From the IMG/VR virus record IMGVR_UViG_2698536549_000018: 14,213 nt of DNA; one strand, given 5' to 3'. A program made the position numbers and the translations under genes. Positions 1-14,010 of the stretch are shown piece by piece. Source of the DNA: a virus. Its lineage: Duplodnaviria; Heunggongvirae; Uroviricota; Caudoviricetes. The notes beneath the pieces are model-generated. The model was not told the origin of the DNA and searched no databases. It saw only the letters and a program-made list of their open reading frames with translations. Numbering within the stretch: the first letter of the stretch is position 1; each line of letters starts with the position of its first letter.

Positions 1-24
1 AAAAAAGCCCCTCCGGAGAGGGGC
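1..24 (-). terminator. Intrinsic terminator (hairpin GCCCCTC-CGGA-GAGGGGC followed by T6 on the minus strand)
   Basis: Plus strand reads A6 then perfect 7-bp GC stem with 4-nt loop at 7-24; on the minus strand this is stem-loop plus TTTTTT. Forms the 3' end of repeat copy A. Confidence 0.6.
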
Positions 25-237
25 CGATCGCTATGTATACACCATAAGCAGCATAGTGCCGGGTGCCTCCCGGTAGATTCAGCCTGACTACTGAATCTGC
101 GTATTGTGACCATCGCTATGGAGACCATGTCAGACGCCCCTCCGCACAGGGGGATTCACTATGCTGGCTCGTTTTTACAAGACTTCCATCGATCAGACAA
201 TAGTCCATCAACCGAATTGTGAGTCATTTAACATTTC
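4..237 (-). repeat. Copy A of a ~240-bp diverged noncoding repeat (terminator hairpin, CCGGGTGCCTCCCGG hairpin, CGCCCCTCCGCACAGGGGGATTCAC block, GAATTGTGAG..ATTTAACA block)
   Basis: Blocks at 7-24, 56-74, 135-159 and 214-237 recur in the same order and spacing at 1965-1982, 2016-2034, 2108-2132 and 2187-2210. No conserved ORF: the ATG after the second block opens a 28-codon frame here and a 10-codon frame in copy B. Confidence 0.6.
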
Positions 238-482
238 CATGAGGTAACTGATATCCAGCTAACAATCATCTACAATGGACGAAGCCAGTTCCAGAACTTG
301 CCCACGGTACAGCAACAACCACTGCATACACATAATTACCACCGGACTCTCTGAACCTGCCTCCTGGCTAACCCCAGATACAACACCACCAGTCACAAAA
401 GCATCTTATTCTGAAGTACAACTGCCGTGCGGCAGATACTAAAAGCGCCTGTATGTAACAACATAAATATACAGGATATGTT

Positions 483-761
483 TTATCCACGGGATATAAT
501 TTTGATTTCATCAAAACCGTTACTACCTGCAATTCTGTTGTACTCCTGAACAAGACTCAGTAACTCCGAATTAGCCGCGGTGAACTCCTCACAGACGTTC
601 CGAAGTGCATCTACATCCAGAAGAACCATCTCCTGACCTGAACGTCGATCAGGGGTACAAAATAAAACTGTCAGACGACTGAAGACCTTTGTTCGTTCCA
701 CATTGACGGCTTCAATACGCTGTAACAGTTGGCTACATCTGATTTTCTCATCAATATTCAC
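483..761 (-). CDS. Small hypothetical protein (92 aa, GTG start) immediately downstream of the AraC-family gene
   Basis: Open frame with protein-like composition; GTG start with weak SD; AT-rich like the adjacent regulator. Function not recognised; a PerC/Pch-like or ANR-like partner is only a hypothesis. Confidence 0.45.
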   Translation of the reverse strand: MNIDEKIRCSQLLQRIEAVNVERTKVFSRLTVLFCTPDRRSGQEMVLLDVDALRNVCEEFTAANSELLSLVQEYNRIAGSNGFDEIKIISRG

Positions 762-850
762 GCAAACACCAAATGATTATAACTCTTTATGCTGAACACA
801 TTCAGACTATATCTAATACAGTCAATCAATATATGCCTGATGAAAAAACA

Positions 851-1576
851 TCAGATAACGTCTGCTTTCTGCAAATATGCATAGCTCTCAGGTGGTGCAC
901 CATAATACTGGTGAAATACAGAAATGAAATAGGACTTACTTGAGTAACCACATTTTTCCGCTATCGCTTGTCCACACTCTCGCTGGAAACATACAAGATT
1001 AACAGCAACACGCATTCGCTCCTCCAGCAACAACCGACTAAAGCTATAACCTTCATCCTTAAGTTTTCGCTTCAACAAGCTTTCGCTCATATGCAATTGT
1101 AATGCAATCACACCTAGCATCCAGCCTGCCGATATGTCGGTCTGAATTATAGCCCTTACTTTACAGCTGATATTATTTACAGCACCGGACAAAAATAATG
1201 GCAGACGCCTGTCTGTTGCAAATAAGGAGATACATGAAAATGCGGTTATAACAGAGAAATCCTTCAAAGTATCACTGGATTCACTATGCTGGGTTATTAA
1301 AGCCTCCGCCAGTTCCGTATTGTAAATATCAGACATCAAATAAAGAGGCATTTTTGTCGGTGTATACTCCGTCAGTTCACACTCCCTTTCCAGATACTGA
1401 TTGACGACGCTGTTACTTATATCTGCCATTTTCACTCTGTCGGCATAAGCACAGAAAAGCCCTCTTATATTTCTGGCAACAAGCATAACACTTCCGGCAT
1501 CGAGTGAAACTTTTTCTTTTTCAAGAAAAATATCTATCGGATAGCGAATCAGGACCACAGAGCAGGCAACATCCAT
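851..1576 (-). CDS. AraC/XylS-family transcriptional regulator (241 aa)
   Basis: C-terminal ~100 aa has the double helix-turn-helix AraC signature (..SESLLKRKLKDEGYSFSRLLLEERMRVAVNL.. and ..IAEKCGYSSKSYFISVFHQYYGAPPESY..). AT-rich with a weak SD, typical of horizontally acquired Rns/AppY/GadX-like regulators. Confidence 0.85.
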   Translation of the reverse strand: MDVACSVVLIRYPIDIFLEKEKVSLDAGSVMLVARNIRGLFCAYADRVKMADISNSVVNQYLERECELTEYTPTKMPLYLMSDIYNTELAEALITQHSESSDTLKDFSVITAFSCISLFATDRRLPLFLSGAVNNISCKVRAIIQTDISAGWMLGVIALQLHMSESLLKRKLKDEGYSFSRLLLEERMRVAVNLVCFQRECGQAIAEKCGYSSKSYFISVFHQYYGAPPESYAYLQKADVI

Positions 1577-1642
1577 TTTGAATTAACCTGAGCAAAAAGA
1601 CTTAATACCAGTATATTCCAAAAATGGCATTTTGGGAGATTA

Positions 1643-1873
1643 CTTCTGCAAACCGCTCCCGCTAAATACATCCCTGATTTCCTGCGCAGTCTGTTCAAAA
1701 CGCCCGGTATCCAGCTCAACGCCAGTTGCACGACGCCCCAGCGCCATCGCTGCTTTAACTGCCGAACCCTACCCCATGAAGAAATCTGCAACCAGGCCAC
1801 CCGGCAGAAGGGAGACTACAGCCCGCAATTCGAAAAAGGCCGCGCTATTGCGCAGAGTGATTACTGTCGGGTA
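1643..1873 (-). pseudogene. C-terminal remnant of a beta-class N6-adenine/N4-cytosine DNA methyltransferase, with in-frame TAG and missing N-terminus
   Basis: Minus-strand translation gives ..LPGGLVADFFMG*GSAVKAAMALGRRATGVELDTGRFEQTAQEIRDVFSGSGLQK*, matching the C-terminal motif I region (DPFxGSGTT..A..LGR.FIGxEld) with TAG at the conserved Ser position (1769-1771). The frame is closed upstream by TAA at 1874-1876; not in the ORF track because it lacks a start. Confidence 0.5.
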
Positions 1874-1924
1874 TTATTCGCCAGTTGAAGTATTACTTCA
1901 CGTTTTATTGTTTATTCCTTGCCG

Positions 1925-1952
1925 CCCGCGTCTCCCAGCGCGGGCTTTTTTT
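1925..1952 (+). terminator. Plus-strand intrinsic terminator (CCCGCG-N8-CGCGGG followed by T7)
   Basis: 6-bp GC stem at 1925-1930/1939-1944, then C and TTTTTTT at 1946-1952. Sits back-to-back with the minus-strand hairpin of repeat copy B. Confidence 0.5.
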
Positions 1953-1961
1953 GTCCATAAG

Positions 1962-2210
1962 AAAGCCCCTCCGGAGAGGGGCTGAAGCCGCATTTCTGTA
2001 TCACCATGAGCATGGTGCCGGGTGCCTCCCGGTGAGTTCAGCCCGGTGACACCAAACCCGCGTATTCTCGCTTACGATCATCAAAGAGATCATACCGTTC
2101 ACCAGTCGCCCCTCCGCACAGGGGGATTCACCATGCGAAATTTTTTTAACAAATGCTCAGTCTGACAGGCAACTGTCAACTTACTGAATTGTGAGGGATT
2201 TAACACTTCA
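1962..2210 (-). repeat. Copy B of the ~240-bp diverged noncoding repeat, including hairpin GCCCCTC-CGGA-GAGGGGC at 1965-1982
   Basis: Same ordered blocks as copy A (see 4-237). Lies directly 3' of the lipoprotein gene on the minus strand. Confidence 0.6.
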
Positions 2211-2271: not shown

Positions 2272-2700
2272 TCAGAGTTTAAAATCCAGCACGCCATTTC
2301 TAAATGCTTTATATACTCCTGAAGACGGTGGTGATGGTATATCAGCATTCTTTACTGCATTCATCGCTTCACGACATAAATCGGGATCACCGCTTTCTCT
2401 TTTAACCTGTAGCAGAAGACCATTCGGGGCCATATACATTCTCAGTGAACACTCTTTTCCTGAATACTTACTCGCATCCTTTAACTGTTCTTCTATGGCT
2501 TTCCTGACCTGAATGGCATACAGCCGGATTTCTTCACTGGCATCAGGGGTACGTTCCGATGAGCTCAAATTTTGCGACTTTATTAATTTATCTGAGTGAT
2601 ACAGAGAAGCATCATAATTATTTGTCGATACATCTTTTGTGCAGCCAGTTGTCAGACTGGCTAATATCAAAACAAGAACCGGTACAGCACGGCAATACAT
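2272..2700 (-). CDS. Lipoprotein with TolA C-terminal domain III-like domain (142 aa)
   Basis: N-terminal signal peptide with lipobox (LILASLTTG-C). C-terminal ~85 aa (YAIQVRKAIEEQLKDASKYSGKECSLRMYMAPNGLLLQVKRESGDPDLCREAMNAVKNADIPSPPSSGVYKAFRNGVLDFKL) aligns closely with the C-terminus of E. coli TolA as recalled (..YAGQIKSAIESKFYDASSYAGKTCTLRIKLAPDGMLLDIKPEGGDPALCQAALAAAKLAKIPKPPSQAVYEVFKNAPLDFKP). ATG start with GGAG upstream; AT-rich upstream region. Confidence 0.8.
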   Translation of the reverse strand: MYCRAVPVLVLILASLTTGCTKDVSTNNYDASLYHSDKLIKSQNLSSSERTPDASEEIRLYAIQVRKAIEEQLKDASKYSGKECSLRMYMAPNGLLLQVKRESGDPDLCREAMNAVKNADIPSPPSSGVYKAFRNGVLDFKL

Positions 2701-3139: not shown

Positions 3140-3258
3140 GGGCGCAGGATAATAACGTTACGAAATAAATGTTGCAAGCATTCAAGAATCACCTGGTTAA
3201 AAATTACCCTTACTTCCTCCACCAGCGCATTCACCATTTCTATCCGAGATAAGTGGCA

Positions 3259-3290
3259 TAAAAAAACCCGCTTGTGGGCGGGTTTTGTTT
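3259..3290 (-). terminator. Bidirectional intrinsic terminator between the Q-like gene and the tRNAs (tR'-like)
   Basis: A7, then stem CCCGC/GCGGG with 6-nt loop, then TTTTGTTTG on the plus strand; on the minus strand the same hairpin is followed by T7. Positioned as lambda tR' is relative to Q. Confidence 0.6.
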
Positions 3291-3349
3291 GCTTTTGCCA
3301 TCACGTACAAAATCGGCAAAATATCAGATTTGCATGAAATATATGCCTT

Positions 3350-4039
3350 TCAATCTACTTTTGCAACACTTTGCTTTGAAAATGCCGCCTTTTGTTTTGA
3401 ACGTGTTCTCATTACAAACAATAAAGCCTCACTATCCAGTCGGTGAAAAATGTGTTTCATTGCAACCCAGTGACGAGTAAATGTTTTGGACCAGTTTTTA
3501 GTTGTCACTCCCGCCAGTAATGCCAGCTCCTGGTATTCATAACCTTCCCCACCAAAAAGTTCTGCTTTTACTGCCTGCGCCGCCAGCCAGATTAATTTTT
3601 TCAGGCGTTCCTGCGTTTTCCCTGCAATTTTTCTGGTACCGGATTGAGTATTAAATTCATTCCACGCCCACTGTGTTATCGCGATCTGATATTCCCAACA
3701 AATACTCCCGCTGTAACTCCACAACAACCAGGCTTTATGATGTTCTTCAAGAGACAGAACAGCCCGCCGCCACGATGATGTCGAAAACTCAACCGGACTG
3801 ACCAGAGGAATTGACGTCCCCTTCGCCAGCGATTGTTTCCCCGGGATTGGTGGATTATCCCGCGTAATCATTTTTCCGGTCACTTCATCTCGGTACCGGA
3901 TTTTTTTACGCCTGTAACGCCCTGTATCGAACATGGCATTCTCCTGCCAGGCTTCAAGCTGACCTTTTGTTGCCCCACTCAAATCAGCGGTGGCGATAAT
4001 GAGCTGCTCACGCACAAACTGTAAATACTGGTTATTCAT
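3350..4039 (-). CDS. Putative late-gene antiterminator Q-like protein (229 aa from the ATG at 4039)
   Basis: Follows rusA with an ATGA start/stop overlap and precedes the tR'-like terminator and tRNAs, the canonical Q position. Trp-rich sequence; no lambda-Q zinc finger seen, so the family is assigned by position only. Confidence 0.55.
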   Translation of the reverse strand: MNNQYLQFVREQLIIATADLSGATKGQLEAWQENAMFDTGRYRRKKIRYRDEVTGKMITRDNPPIPGKQSLAKGTSIPLVSPVEFSTSSWRRAVLSLEEHHKAWLLWSYSGSICWEYQIAITQWAWNEFNTQSGTRKIAGKTQERLKKLIWLAAQAVKAELFGGEGYEYQELALLAGVTTKNWSKTFTRHWVAMKHIFHRLDSEALLFVMRTRSKQKAAFSKQSVAKVD

Positions 4040-5907: not shown

Positions 5908-6063
5908 TTACTTCTCAGATTCGTAGTCCACGAAGACAGCGACCTCCGTCTGGCCGGTTCGGATTCGTACCTCGCAGAGGTCTTTCCTCGTTACCAGTGC
6001 CGTCACTATGACGGTTAAACAGATGACGATCAGGGCGACTAACATCGCCTTTTGCTGCTTCAT
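5908..6063 (-). CDS. hok: Hok/Gef-family type I toxin (51 aa); in-frame upstream ATG at 6120 gives a 70-codon mok-like frame
   Basis: MKQQKAMLVALIVICLTVIVTALVTRKDLCEVRIRTGQTEVAVFVDYESEK matches the Hok signature (single TM helix, conserved ..RK.LCE.R...G..EVAAF..YES..). GGAG SD upstream of the ATG at 6063; terminator downstream. Confidence 0.85.
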   Translation of the reverse strand: MKQQKAMLVALIVICLTVIVTALVTRKDLCEVRIRTGQTEVAVFVDYESEK

Positions 6064-6274
6064 AGACTGCTTCTCCTTGCCTTTCGGCACGTAAGAGGCT
6101 AACCTACATTTGTGAGACATAGATTGGGCCTCAGATTAATGTTAAGCGTCTTGCAGGACGCGTAATGTTAACTGGGGCTTTTCTCTATCTGCCTTTTGGT
6201 GTTCATGCCTGAGGCAGATAGCCTCAAGCACCCGCAGCAATTCTACTTAACTCTCCTTTTCCCGCAAACCGTTT

Positions 6275-9139: not shown

Positions 9140-10240
9140 TTACCCCCTGAAGCCTGGCGGAATTTCGGTATCCGGTTCAGAAACATGATTCACACAACGC
9201 TGGTTGTTCGTGCCGCTTACCGGGAGCAACCAGGGGTTTTCAAAATTCCGGTCCGGTCCAAAAAACGTCGTCGCTCGCTGAACAAATTCCGTTCCCGTTT
9301 TCCCGGTAGTCGCCAAGTATCTTGCGTAACGCCTCACGCCATCCAGCATGGCCTCTGGTGGCACCCCCTCGCGTAATCTGGCCTTCCAGGCACTGAAAGC
9401 GGATTTCTTCGGGTTTGCCCCGGCACGCAACGGGTATTCCCGCCAGACCTGTTCGAACACATCCGGATAATCCACTCGTCCCACAGGCTGCCCGGTGTTT
9501 TCCGGGACTACCTGATCGGCTTCCCGCTGAATGGCGGAATCGGCTTCAGGCTGCTGCAGTTGGTGTGATTGTTCCGGCCTTGCGGTCATCGCCTGCTGCA
9601 CAGCGCCCGAATCGGCTTCCGGTGTCGTGCCTGCTGGCTGACCAGGATTGACGTTCTGAACATCCCCTGCCTGGTTCGTGGCGATTTTTTCGCCATGAAG
9701 CATAGTATTTTTATCCTGATCCTGTTCTTTCTCCTGTTCTTGGCTTAGAAGCCCCTTTAAAGCCTCTTCGAAGCCCCTTGCTGAATTCCGGCGATTATTC
9801 CGCCTCACATCCAGATGGAAATCCGTTTTATATCTGTCGTAAAAGGCTGACAGAAAGGCGTTTTCAGGTAATGATGCATACTCATTCCTGACACCTGCAC
9901 AACGGTTATCTCCAGGCTTCAACGTTTCCCCAACCTGCCAGGCTGCCATTTCATGGACCCAGACCATCTCGGCATCATGGTCATAGCTACAAAAACCAGC
10001 TTCAACAGCCCTTTTAAGCCCCTTCGAAGCCCCTTCCGGACCAAGCCCGGTTTCATGAGCAAGGTACAAAACTGGCAGGTAATACAAACCCAACATATTT
10101 GCGTGAGGGGATGTCATCAGGTAAAAAGCAACAACTTGCGCTTCTGCACCCGCCTTTCTAAGTTCTCTCCCCGTTTCTCCCAGCCAGAATCGCGGGGAAA
10201 CTTTTGCATAATCACGCATGTTCACCTCGTCTGGAGCCAA
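9140..10240 (-). CDS. Putative phage replication-initiation / replisome-organiser-like protein (366 aa; alternative ATG start at 10219)
   Basis: Largest early-operon ORF, at the position of O/YdaU-type replication genes. Low-complexity Gln/Glu/Pro-rich linker between N- and C-terminal domains. Function assigned by position and general resemblance only. Confidence 0.7.
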   Translation of the reverse strand: MAPDEVNMRDYAKVSPRFWLGETGRELRKAGAEAQVVAFYLMTSPHANMLGLYYLPVLYLAHETGLGPEGASKGLKRAVEAGFCSYDHDAEMVWVHEMAAWQVGETLKPGDNRCAGVRNEYASLPENAFLSAFYDRYKTDFHLDVRRNNRRNSARGFEEALKGLLSQEQEKEQDQDKNTMLHGEKIATNQAGDVQNVNPGQPAGTTPEADSGAVQQAMTARPEQSHQLQQPEADSAIQREADQVVPENTGQPVGRVDYPDVFEQVWREYPLRAGANPKKSAFSAWKARLREGVPPEAMLDGVRRYARYLATTGKTGTEFVQRATTFFGPDRNFENPWLLPVSGTNNQRCVNHVSEPDTEIPPGFRG

Positions 10241-13619: not shown

Positions 13620-13644
13620 GCGGAAATGGATATCCGCTCTTTTT
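13620..13644 (+). terminator. Candidate plus-strand intrinsic terminator (GCGGA-N8-TCCGC followed by TCTTTTT)
   Basis: 5-bp stem at 13620-13624/13633-13637, then T-run at 13640-13644. Short stem, so modest confidence. Confidence 0.35.
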
Positions 13645-13821
13645 AAAGTGAATTTTGTGATGCGGTGAATGCGGCCATGCGCACGCGGAACAGTTAAAAC
13701 AAGCGGTCTTTTACTTGCGTAACAGACATCAACTAACAATCCGGCGTTAATTGTTAACTGGTTAACGTCACCTGGAGGCACCAGGCACGGCATCACAAAA
13801 TTCATTGTTGAGGACGCGATA

Positions 13822-14010
13822 ATGGAAACGTTATTACCAAACGTTAATACGTCTGAAGGTTGTTTTGATATTGGTGTTCTGCTCAGTAACCGGGAGTTTA
13901 CTGAAGATGCCATTAATATGAGGAAATATGAGCCTTATCTGCTCAATGATAATTCCATACTTTCCCGAATTGCTCTTCTTGAACTTGGTATTTTCGGAGA
14001 ACGTCAATGA
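13822..14010 (+). CDS. Hypothetical small protein (62 aa), first of a translationally coupled pair
   Basis: GAGG 7 nt upstream of the ATG; its stop overlaps the next start (ATGA). Confidence 0.5.
   Translation: METLLPNVNTSEGCFDIGVLLSNREFTEDAINMRKYEPYLLNDNSILSRIALLELGIFGERQ

What the first reader, a model, noticed from the sequence alone, without database searches (positions are those of the whole stretch)
1..2210. Two diverged copies of a ~240-bp structured noncoding element, each ending in a GC hairpin terminator
Copies at 4-237 and 1962-2210 share ordered blocks: a terminator hairpin GCCCCTCCGGAGAGGGGC, a CCGGGTGCCTCCCGG hairpin, a 25-nt near-identical block CGCCCCTCCGCACAGGGGGATTCAC, and a GAATTGTGAG..ATTTAACA block. 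The sequence between blocks has diverged and no ORF is conserved. That pattern fits an RNA or DNA-site function (a prophage sRNA, a structured 3' UTR, or a recombination boundary sequence) rather than a protein. On the minus strand each copy lies directly 3' of a cargo gene and ends at a terminator.
Basis: seen in the sequence. Interest (0 to 1): 0.55.

Follow-up and report, generated by a model that had tools for sequence, protein, structure and literature searches.

The report
Known prophage small-RNA genes (STnc100)
The two repeats are copies of an already catalogued prophage small-RNA gene (STnc100, the same kind that sits next to Shiga toxin genes); they are real and strongly structured, but what the RNA does is still not established.

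Summary
Both copies lie on the minus strand and match Rfam family RF02076 (STnc100) far above its threshold: copy B 2165-1953, 172 bits; copy A 193-1, 113 bits. They sit in the late operon of a lambdoid prophage, between Q/pR' and the nanS-p/lysis genes, and bracket an AraC-type moron. This is where EHEC carries EcOnc27/sRNA103 after stx2B. EPEC PasD is a relative.

The family is known, is bound by Hfq and is seen on northern blots. Its function is not established.

Comparison of about 190 distinct relatives from Enterobacterales adds several points:
- The core is a multi-helix junction. P1, P2 and P5 covary strongly, and P2 fits better in a register different from Rfam's.
- A pseudoknot joins the linker after P2 to the P5 loop. 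The papers read here do not mention it.
- G-U pairs show that the selected structure is on the minus-strand RNA.
- The stretch between core and terminator, where PasD has its seed, is the least conserved part.
- A third, divergent copy lies at 13649-13804 (+), just upstream of dicB.

Verdict: a real feature of an already known kind, of moderate interest only because the role of the conserved core is open.

The parts
2190..2205 (-). It is the probable promoter -10-like element and 5'-end region. It also fits TGTTA-N6-TCACA, a CRP-like site.
   Evidence: The pattern occurs only at the two homologous places in the window, against 0.06 expected. It is conserved at a fixed 53 nt before P1 in the E. 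coli subfamily. EcOnc27's northern size puts the 5' end at the equivalent block in Sakai. The function of the block is inferred, not shown.
2137..2189 (-). Copy B, A/U-rich leader (..UUGACAGUUGCCUGUCAGACUGAGCAUUUGUUAAAAAAAUUUC). It also holds weak sigma70-like hexamers, TTGCCT-18-TAAAAA at 2172-2143.
   Evidence: The Rfam model covers its last 29 nt. The EcOnc13 northern probe is antisense to the equivalent stretch of another family member. The 5' end itself has not been mapped.
2010..2136 (-). Copy B, structured core. P1 2136-2129 with 2017-2010. P2 2125-2110. Pseudoknot 2105-2100 (CUGGUG) with 2048-2043 (CACCGG). Variable P3 about 2093-2074. P5 2059-2052 with 2041-2034. P6 2032-2018.
   Evidence: Rfam alignment. 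Covariation on 72 relatives. Pseudoknot permutation test.
1984..2009 (-). Copy B, single-stranded stretch between core and terminator (UCAUGGUGAUACAGAAAUGCGGCUUC). It is the candidate base-pairing region.
   Evidence: It is the least conserved segment, 43% identical to copy A. It corresponds to the place of the PasD seed and of the EcOnc27 probe and Hfq cluster. Its role is inferred.
1953..1983 (-). Copy B, intrinsic terminator: stem 1983-1964, then a U-rich tail.
   Evidence: Terminator scan. Rfam model positions 168-206.
218..233 (-). Copy A, conserved upstream block TGTTAAATGACTCACA.
   Evidence: It has the same spacing to P1 (53 nt) as in copy B.
165..217 (-). Copy A, leader. Weak hexamers TTGTCT-17-TAAAAA at 200-172.
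   Evidence: Alignment with copy B.
51..164 (-). Copy A, structured core. P1 164-157 with 58-51. P2 153-138. Pseudoknot 133-129 (CUGAC) with 88-84 (GUCAG). P5 98-90 with 83-75. P6 73-59.
   Evidence: Rfam, 113.2 bits. The minimum-free-energy fold reproduces P1, P2, P5, P6 and the terminator, z -3.4. The pseudoknot pairing is listed.
26..50 (-). Copy A, single-stranded stretch between core and terminator (UGCUUAUGGUGUAUACAUAGCGAUC).
1..25 (-). Copy A, intrinsic terminator: stem 25-6, U6 tail 5-1. The RNA is complete even though the Rfam model is cut by the window edge.
13649..13804 (+). Copy C, a third and divergent member with no terminator. It has a 17-bp outer stem (13649-13665 pairing with 13788-13804, read off the fold; the repeat finder extends the arms to 28 nt at 82% complementarity). 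Its P2 is of another sequence type (GCGG..CGCG). The pseudoknot is CAGUUAA/UUAACUG. P6 carries a compensatory change (CCUGG/CCAGG). It ends 18 nt before dicB.
   Evidence: Rfam 25.3 bits, E 0.04, below threshold. Inverted repeat I3. Fold z -5.0. Relatives of this type reach the Rfam threshold (L140) and fit the family structure. dicB is supported by Pfam E 6e-37.

Best explanation
Each copy is a self-contained gene for an STnc100-family small RNA. This is the class called EcOnc27/sRNA103 in EHEC and is related to PasD of EPEC. It is carried in the moron zone of a lambdoid prophage's late operon.

Reading the minus strand, each cassette has five parts:
1. A conserved upstream block where transcription probably starts.
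2. An A/U-rich leader of about 55 nt.
3. A 114-127-nt folded core: closing helix P1, hairpins P2, P3, P5 and P6, and a pseudoknot between the linker after P2 and the P5 loop.
4. A poorly conserved single-stranded stretch of about 26 nt.
5. An intrinsic terminator.

How it most likely works:
- In the lysogen the cassette is transcribed on its own and stops at its own terminator, giving a roughly 220-240-nt RNA.
- Hfq holds the 3' part.
- The RNA acts on other transcripts by base pairing through the variable stretch, so copies A and B would have different targets.
- The conserved core serves as a shared scaffold whose own role is unknown.
- After induction, Q-modified polymerase from pR' (3366-3256) reads through both terminators into nanS-p and the lysis genes.

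Shown here: family membership, the structure and its covariation, the strand, the terminators and the genomic position.
Taken from papers on homologues: discrete transcripts, Hfq binding and the position of the seed.
Inferred: the 5' end, independent transcription of these two copies, and the base-pairing mode of action.
For: Membership: RF02076 scores 172.4 and 113.2 bits against a gathering score of 47.

Position: 21-type Q at 4045-3350; a pR'-tR' unit at 3366-3256; tRNA-Ile and tRNA-Arg; a TolA-C-domain moron; copy B; a methyltransferase remnant, an AraC-type gene and a 92-aa ORF; copy A. In the closest genome this is followed by two more copies, nanS-p, holin, lysozyme and Rz.

Structure, on 72 distinct relatives:
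- 87% of cells are paired against 70.8% in shuffles.
- The covariation score is 0.448 against 0.156 (0/500 shuffles reach it), and 0.07-0.12 when partners are slid.
- P1 has double changes in 7 of 8 pairs, P5 in 8 of 8, and P2 is 99.7% paired.

Pseudoknot: the mean best duplex is 6.24 bp in 107 representatives against 4.71 +/- 0.10 after permuting loops (0/2000).

Strand: G-U is the commonest pair at one P5 position and is frequent elsewhere. That is only possible on the minus-strand RNA.

Homologues:
- The EcOnc27 Hfq-CRAC cluster maps to P6, linker and terminator. The northern species are about 235/247 nt, and the 247-nt species is destabilised without hfq.
- PasD1/2 were confirmed by northern blot and RIL-seq, with the seed 3' of the core.
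- RpoD ChIP-exo signal was reported at Salmonella STnc100 promoters.

Independent cassette: in tandem arrays each unit repeats block, leader, core and terminator, with only about 30 nt after the preceding terminator.
Against: - No transcript data exist for this strain, and the 5' end is not mapped.
- Three candidate start points exist: at the block, about 29 nt before P1 (the Rfam model boundary), and at P1 as in PasD.
- The promoter hexamers are weak, and the block has no good -35.
- In a typical base-pairing sRNA the seed is the best conserved part. Here it is the least conserved, and the elaborate core is conserved across families of bacteria. The base-pairing model leaves that unexplained.
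- About half of the relatives have no terminator within 140 nt, and some run straight into a tRNA gene. The Hfq/terminator module is therefore not a constant feature of the wider family.
- Reported targets of sRNA103 (fimZ, espA) come from overexpression, with no shown mechanism.
Confidence: 0.6

Rival explanations
1. The conserved core is the functional part. It would be a folded RNA domain that binds a protein, a ligand or the transcription/translation machinery. On this reading the Hfq-bound sRNA form is only one of several ways of packaging it.
For: - The core has a multi-helix junction, a pseudoknot and near-invariant loop and junction nucleotides (GGUGAAU, the P2 loop U-N-N-G-C, P6 CCGGGAGGCACCCGG). 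These are kept from Escherichia to Pantoea, Erwinia and Rahnella.
- The presumed seed is the least conserved part.
- The core occurs without a terminator, directly before tRNA genes, before dicB, in tandem arrays of 3-5 copies, and next to a chromosomal kdgM porin gene.
Against: - No partner is identified.
- No recurrent neighbouring protein gene was found other than the ordinary late-region genes.
- No other Rfam family matches.
- The only experimental data on homologues point to Hfq and RNA-RNA contacts.
Confidence: 0.22
2. It is a riboswitch-like attenuator. The core senses something and decides whether the terminator forms, so controlling read-through into the genes downstream (the AraC module, nanS-p, lysis genes).
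For: - The layout is aptamer-like fold, short spacer, terminator.
- In copies A and B the 3' half of P2 (GGAGGGGC) equals the 3' half of the terminator, so the two hairpins can swap partners. The minimum-free-energy fold of copy B does exactly that.
- CAUGGUG after P1 repeats the P1 5' strand.
Against: - Across the family the terminator sequence does not follow P2.
- Only 64 of 163 distinct members have a terminator within 140 nt.
- Downstream genes are unrelated to one another.
- Read-through into holin genes in a lysogen would be lethal.
Confidence: 0.07
3. It is a structured 3' UTR or processing product of the upstream cargo mRNAs. On this reading it stabilises their 3' ends and terminates them, and has no promoter of its own.
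For: - Each copy follows a cargo gene and ends in a terminator.
- The block has no convincing -35.
- EcOnc27 starts only about 35-45 nt after the stx2B stop codon, and two northern species are seen.
Against: - Tandem copies directly follow another copy's terminator and still keep the block.
- PasD-type and Salmonella-type members have a good -35/-10 pair at a fixed distance from P1.
- PasD2's estimated 5' end, taken from RNA-seq read coverage in the paper's supplementary table, falls on the first nucleotide of P1.
- RpoD ChIP-exo signal was reported at Salmonella copies.
- Upstream genes differ from locus to locus.
Confidence: 0.08
4. It is primarily a DNA-level element: repeated homology that lets lambdoid phages swap morons by recombination.
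For: - Direct repeats 1972 bp apart bracket the methyltransferase-remnant/AraC/92-aa module.
- The same spacing recurs in viral contigs (L045, L058, L069).
- Copy number varies between close relatives.
- About half of complete E. coli genomes carry 1-11 copies.
Against: - Selection is on a strand-specific RNA fold: G-U pairs and compensatory changes in four helices and a pseudoknot.
- Recombination between copies is a likely by-product, not the reason for conservation.
Confidence: 0.03

Closest known systems
STnc100 (Rfam RF02076), also called EcOnc27 (Sakai) and sRNA103 (EDL933)
   Same: - Both copies match the covariance model end to end.
- They share the position between the Q-dependent late promoter and the lysis genes, and the orientation.
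- They have an intrinsic terminator and a convergent short sRNA partner after it.
- Stx phages carry the element right after stx2B.
   Different: - Here the upstream cargo is a TolA-C-domain gene (copy B) or an AraC-type module (copy A), not stx.
- The convergent partner after copy B is not AsxR.
- My P2 register and the pseudoknot are not in the nested consensus line that the Rfam scan prints. Whether Rfam's seed file annotates a pseudoknot could not be checked.
PasD1/PasD2 of EPEC E2348/69 (Pearl Mizrahi 2021; Zhu, Shabalina and Storz 2026 preprint)
   Same: - Same neighbourhood: Q upstream, nanS-p or holin downstream.
- Same 5' part: GCAUGGUGAAUCC, a P2-like hairpin, the pseudoknot, P5 and GGGAGGC.
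- Hfq-dependent, with a terminator.
- The preprint proposes common ancestry with STnc100.
   Different: - PasD lacks the 3' half of P6 and has a shorter P2.
- It does not reach the STnc100 gathering score.
- It has a longer 3' extension carrying the seed UUGUGAG, which copies A and B lack.
- PasD's estimated 5' end, taken from RNA-seq coverage, is at P1.
AsxR/AgvB class of short prophage anti-sRNAs
   Same: They occupy the same moron zone and are arranged convergently with STnc100-type genes.
   Different: They are 51-60 nt and unstructured apart from the terminator, lie on the opposite strand, and act as sponges of core sRNAs. The window has no match to the Rfam AsxR or AgvB models.
pR' leader RNAs of lambdoid phages (lambda 6S RNA, StxS)
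   Same: They are short terminated transcripts in the late region, read through by Q-modified polymerase.
   Different: The window has its own pR'-tR' unit directly after Q, at 3366-3256. The same holds in L011. The STnc100 copies lie 1.2 and 3.2 kb further downstream.
DicF (compared with copy C only)
   Same: Copy C occupies the spot immediately upstream of dicB in the early-left operon. From my own knowledge of the K-12 map, that is where the Qin prophage has dicF.
   Different: There is no sequence or model match to DicF. Copy C is a 156-nt STnc100-type fold, not a 53-nt processed sRNA.

Membership tests
STnc100 (RF02076) | Score at or above the curated gathering score (47 bits) of the covariance model | tested here: met
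   Copy B scores 172.4 bits and copy A 113.2 bits. Copy C scores 25.3 bits, so this row is not met for copy C.
STnc100 (RF02076) | Core helices P1, P2, P5 and P6 can form in the copy and are supported by covariation in the family | tested here: met
   All four helices form in copies A, B and C. Family covariation is 0.448 against 0.156 in shuffles.
STnc100 (RF02076) | Intrinsic terminator at the 3' end | tested here: met
   Called at 1983-1964 and 25-6 on the minus strand. Copy C has none.
STnc100 (RF02076) | Prophage late-region (moron zone) location, in sense with the late operon | tested here: met
   Copy C lies elsewhere, in the early-left operon.
STnc100 (RF02076) | Discrete transcript bound by Hfq | not testable with these tools
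   This is known only for homologues (EcOnc27; PasD).
PasD1/PasD2 | PasD-type 3' extension with the seed UUGUGAG, and near identity to the E2348/69 genes | tested here: not met
   The alignment shows similarity only in the 5' core. The seed is absent from the minus-strand RNA of copies A and B. PasD itself does not reach the STnc100 threshold.
pR' leader RNA (lambda 6S / StxS type) | Starts at the Q-dependent promoter immediately downstream of the Q gene | tested here: not met
   A separate promoter-terminator unit lies at 3366-3256, right after Q. The copies start at about 2195 and about 221.
Transcription-terminating riboswitch | Conserved mutually exclusive pairing between aptamer and terminator | tested here: not met
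   The P2/terminator swap is possible in copies A and B, but the terminator does not covary with P2 in the family, and most members lack a nearby terminator.
Class I CRP-dependent promoter (reading of the upstream block) | CRP site centred near -61.5 relative to the transcription start | tested here: inconclusive
   TGTTA-N6-TCACA is centred 61.5 nt before P1 in both copies. However, northern sizes of EcOnc27 put the start at the block itself, which would void this geometry.

The most novel reading that the evidence does not exclude
The 5' core of STnc100-type RNAs would be a so far unrecognised class of autonomously folding RNA domain. It has a junction, a pseudoknot and invariant loops, and it is spread through Enterobacterales prophages, plasmids and at least one chromosomal locus. 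Its conserved function would be binding of a host or phage factor (a protein, the polymerase, the ribosome or a metabolite) rather than base pairing. On this reading the Hfq-bound sRNA, the tRNA-leader form and the dicB-leader form are different deliveries of the same domain.
Probability: 0.22. Interest if true: 0.7.

Novelty: already known. Interest (0 to 1): 0.35.

Why it matters
For this window it settles the annotation: two complete STnc100-type sRNA genes plus a third divergent copy, none of them annotated in the RefSeq records that were examined.

More widely, the family is very common. Sequences like copy B are found in 2687 of 5426 complete E. coli genomes, with up to 11 places per genome. 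It also sits directly after stx2B.

A 2025 study found that sequence variants 90 and 103 bp after stx2B are among the best predictors of haemolytic uraemic syndrome. On my mapping these two positions fall in the A-rich tract just before helix P1. That places them in the leader or promoter region and not in the folded core, which makes an expression effect testable.

The unexplained contrast between a deeply conserved pseudoknotted core and a fast-changing 'seed' is the one point a specialist might find worth following up.

Tried and rejected
1. The lambdoid pR' leader (6S-like RNA). Rejected: a separate pR'-tR' unit lies right after Q.

2. A kissing contact between the P2 loop GUGC and the P6 loop GCAC. 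Rejected: the two P2-loop positions vary freely (GU, AA, AU, GA, CA, UU) while the P6 loop stays fixed.

3. A small ORF starting at the AUG inside P1's 3' strand, behind the GGAGG of P6. Rejected: many members have CACCACAC there with no AUG, and the change is compensated in P1.

4. A riboswitch-type antiterminator using the P2/terminator similarity. Not supported family-wide.

5. A cis-regulatory leader for one kind of gene. Rejected: downstream genes are unrelated to one another. They include dicB, holins, a KdgM porin, tRNAs and others.

6. Transcription start at the first nucleotide of P1 with a class I CRP site at -61.5. I held this view until Tree et al.'s northern sizes and probe positions showed that the leader is transcribed in EHEC. 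It is now kept only as a weak alternative.

7. A tRNA-like element. The topology is loosely cloverleaf-like and some copies abut tRNA genes. However, the Rfam scan at E up to 1, which includes the tRNA model, lists nothing at the copies. A dedicated tRNA finder was run only on the sequence downstream of the cores, not on the cores themselves.

8. A fixed-column count of the pseudoknot on the MAFFT alignment gave only 54% paired, because the register shifts between types. A register-free permutation test was used instead.

9. An Rfam identity for the convergent plus-strand sRNA at 1899-1952. None was found.
Full report
**What is there**

The two stretches align with 69% identity. Conservation is concentrated in the terminator (93%), the upstream block (88%) and the structured middle (77%). 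The stretch between the last stem and the terminator is 43% identical, and the stretch between the upstream block and the first stem is 51%.

An Rfam scan of the whole window places both copies, on the minus strand, in family RF02076 (STnc100):
- copy B, 2165-1953: 172.4 bits, E 9e-40;
- copy A, 193-1: 113.2 bits, E 1e-24.

The gathering score is 47.

**Setting**

The nearest genomes (99.4% and 96.6% identical over the first 4.2 kb) and Pfam give the order of features on the minus strand:
- a 21-type Q antiterminator, 4045-3350;
- a short promoter-terminator unit, 3366-3256, which is the Q-dependent late promoter with its leader;
- tRNA-Ile and tRNA-Arg;
- a gene with a TolA C-terminal domain, 2700-2272;
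- copy B;
- a DNA methyltransferase remnant, an AraC-type regulator (1576-851) and a 92-aa ORF;
- copy A.

In strain N51 two more tandem copies follow, then the nanS-p esterase, holin, lysozyme and Rz. This is the moron zone of a Stx-type lambdoid prophage. In Stx2 phages the same element follows stx2B.

**What is known about the family**

- In EHEC Sakai the copy after stx2B is EcOnc27. It is an Hfq-crosslinked RNA of about 235/247 nt, convergent with the anti-sRNA AsxR (PMC4104026).
- In EDL933 it is sRNA103. Its overexpression raised fimZ and espA transcripts, by an unknown route (PMC7873438).
- EPEC PasD1/PasD2 are abundant Hfq-dependent sRNAs from the same neighbourhood, with a predicted seed 3' of the structured part (PMC8550237).
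- A 2026 preprint proposes that PasD and STnc100 share an ancestor and states that the function is not elucidated.
- RpoD ChIP-exo signal was reported at the Salmonella copies.
- A 2025 study reports STnc100 in outer membrane vesicles of STEC strains.

The element is thus an already known kind.

**Structure**

I collected relatives with two exact-motif scans, viral contigs and one genome per species. This gave 195 parsed cores; after filtering out mis-parses, 163 distinct members remained. They come from Escherichia, Salmonella, Klebsiella, Enterobacter, Kosakonia, Citrobacter, Pantoea, Erwinia, Rahnella and others.

On 72 distinct sequences, with the unalignable P3 arm spliced out, the fold P1-P2-P5-P6 gives the following:
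- 87% of cells are paired, against 70.8% in shuffles.
- The covariation score is 0.448 against 0.156 (0 of 500 shuffles reach it).
- With partners slid by 1-3 columns the score is 0.07-0.12.
- P1 has double changes in 7 of 8 pairs and P5 in 8 of 8.

P2 fits best in a register different from the one printed by the Rfam scan. It has five or six pairs and a loop U-N-N-G-C. One 3'-side nucleotide is bulged, or is paired when an extra base is present on the 5' side. This register is 99.7% paired, with C-G to G-C, U-A and A-U swaps.

P6 (CCGGGAGGCACCCGG) is almost invariant. The one swap (CCUGG/CCAGG) is the type found in window copy C.

**Pseudoknot**

The linker that follows P2 is complementary to the loop of P5, and the two change together. 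Examples are CUGGUG/CACCGG (copy B), CUGAC/GUCAG (copy A), AUCAGCA/UGCUGAU, CCAGUC/GACUGG, UCCAGAA/UUCUGGA, AGGCUAC/GUAGCCU and CAGUUAA/UUAACUG (copy C).

The register shifts between types, so the fixed-column count is weak (54%). A register-free test was used instead. In 107 representatives with different linker sequences, the mean best duplex is 6.24 bp. It is 4.71 +/- 0.10 when loops are permuted, and 0 of 2000 permutations reach the observed value.

Frequent G-U pairs show that the selected fold is that of the minus-strand transcript, not of the opposite strand or of duplex DNA. None of the papers read mentions a pseudoknot.

**The 5' end and the fourth block**

It lies a fixed 53 nt before P1 in the E. 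coli subfamily.

I first read it as a CRP-like site (TGTTA-N6-TCACA) centred at -61.5 from a start at P1. PasD2's estimated 5' end, taken from RNA-seq coverage in that paper's supplementary table, is the first nucleotide of P1. PasD-type and Salmonella-type members also have a good -35/-10 pair right before P1.

Data from Tree et al. argue otherwise for this subfamily:
- In Sakai the distance from P1 to the terminator tail is 175 nt, while EcOnc27 runs at about 235/247 nt. This puts the 5' end at the block.
- The EcOnc13 northern probe is antisense to the stretch -40 to -6 before P1 of another STnc100 type, so that leader is transcribed.

The best estimate for copies B and A is therefore an RNA of about 240 and about 220 nt that begins at the block. 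The block then carries a -10-like TAAAT with no clear -35. The CRP-like reading remains a weaker alternative. The start site is not settled by anything I could compute.

**How it most likely works**

The Hfq crosslinking cluster of EcOnc27 maps to P6, the linker and the terminator. The PasD seed lies in the equivalent stretch.

The most economical model is an independently transcribed, terminator-ended, Hfq-held sRNA that pairs with targets through the stretch between core and terminator. That stretch differs between copies A and B, so they would not be redundant. After induction, Q-modified polymerase would read through both terminators.

This model does not explain why the seed-like stretch is the least conserved part while the core is kept across bacterial families. 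It also does not explain the other contexts in which the core occurs:
- 64 of 163 distinct members have a terminator within 140 nt (median gap 29 nt).
- 6 run into a tRNA gene.
- Others precede dicB, holin genes or further copies.
- A subfamily lies next to a chromosomal kdgM-type porin gene and a pectate lyase gene in Klebsiella, Kosakonia and Enterobacter.

I therefore keep as the main rival that the core itself binds some factor.

**Rejected readings**

- The element is not the pR' leader RNA.
- A P2-P6 kissing contact is contradicted by free variation in the P2 loop.
- An AUG after P6 is not conserved.
- The striking similarity between P2 and the terminator in copies A and B lets them swap partners in the predicted fold of copy B. 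Across the family, however, the terminator does not track P2, so a riboswitch-type switch is not supported.
- Downstream genes have nothing in common.
- The direct repeats could well mediate moron exchange, but RNA-level selection shows this is not why they are conserved.

**Third copy**

At 13649-13804 on the plus strand there is a further member below the Rfam threshold (25.3 bits, E 0.04). It has a 17-bp outer stem, its own pseudoknot, a compensated P6 and a fold z-score of -5.0. It ends 18 nt before a dicB homologue and has no terminator. Near-identical copies precede dicB in viral contigs L053 and L096.

**Verdict**

This is a real feature of an already known kind. The added value here is the pseudoknot, the revised P2, the strand assignment, the likely extent of the RNA, the third copy, and the wider range of contexts. 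Interest is moderate and rests on the unexplained conservation of the core and on the link to the HUS-associated variants next to stx2B.

Noticed in passing
window 13649-13804 (+): A third, divergent STnc100-type fold lies directly upstream of a dicB homologue (13822-14010), where (from my own knowledge of the K-12 map) the Qin prophage has dicF. It has no terminator after it. A terminator-like hairpin lies just before it, at about 13620-13645.
   Followed up: partly
window 1899-1952 (+): A short convergent sRNA-like gene ends at terminator 1924-1945 plus a T7 run, 10 nt from copy B's terminator. Its sequence is almost the same as the EPEC RIL-seq candidate 'E2348C_1409.E2348C_1408.IGR'. It has no Rfam family. 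The same kind of partner follows the last tandem copy in L001, at about 3800-3870.
   Followed up: partly
L001 3872-4580 (strain N51, just left of the window): Three STnc100 cassettes stand in tandem, about 260 nt apart. Each has its own upstream block, leader, core and terminator. The window's left edge cuts this array after its first member, which is copy A.
   Followed up: partly
window 2190-2199 and 218-227 (-): The conserved block contains CUCACAA. This matches the motif CUCACA(GG) enriched in RIL-seq targets of PasD, whose seed is UUGUGAG. PasD-type RNAs might pair with the 5' end of STnc100-type RNAs.
   Followed up: no
window 2110-2125 / 1964-1983 and 138-153 / 6-25 (-): Hairpin P2 and the terminator are near-duplicates (CCCCCUGUGCGGAGGGGC and GCCCCUCUCCGGAGGGGC). 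The predicted minimum-energy fold of copy B pairs them with each other instead of forming P1 and P2. This is not conserved in the wider family.
   Followed up: yes
window 3220-3237 (-): The fragment GGUGAAUGCGCUGGUG lies about 80 nt before tRNA-Ile and resembles the first 16 nt of a core of the copy-C type. In other phages (L061, L104, L204, L218) an intact core lies 8-10 nt before the same tRNA. This may be a decayed remnant.
   Followed up: no
window 3256-3366 (-): A pR'-tR' unit lies right after the 21-type Q gene: TTGCAA-17-TATATT, a leader of about 75 nt, and terminator 3286-3263. It has weak sub-threshold similarity to isrK and isrJ.
   Followed up: partly
window 6061-6233 (-) and 5908-6120 (-): A hok/sok toxin-antitoxin locus: sok RNA at 119.7 bits, with a 70-aa hok-type ORF.
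   Followed up: no
window 2272-2700 (-): A moron encodes a 142-aa protein with a TolA C-terminal domain (Pfam E 4.6e-22). It occupies the place where Stx phages carry stx.
   Followed up: no
window 9744-10035: Four copies of CTTCGAAGCCCCTT lie in two pairs 256 nt apart inside the 366-aa ORF 9140-10240. They are probably origin iterons within a replication-initiator gene.
   Followed up: no
L179, L243, L244, L170, L192, L135 and others (genome contigs): A subfamily of the core lies in what looks like a non-prophage chromosomal locus of Klebsiella, Kosakonia and Enterobacter. It sits between a LuxR-type regulator and a KdgM-family porin gene followed by a periplasmic pectate lyase gene, 77-199 nt before the porin start codon.
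   Followed up: partly
L246 2545-2558 and L247 638-651 (Stx2 phages): The two variants reported as HUS predictors (a SNP at +90 and a T deletion at +103 after stx2B) fall in the tract UGUUAAAAAAAUUUC just before helix P1. Phage Stx2a_WGPS6 has one T fewer there than Sakai.
   Followed up: partly
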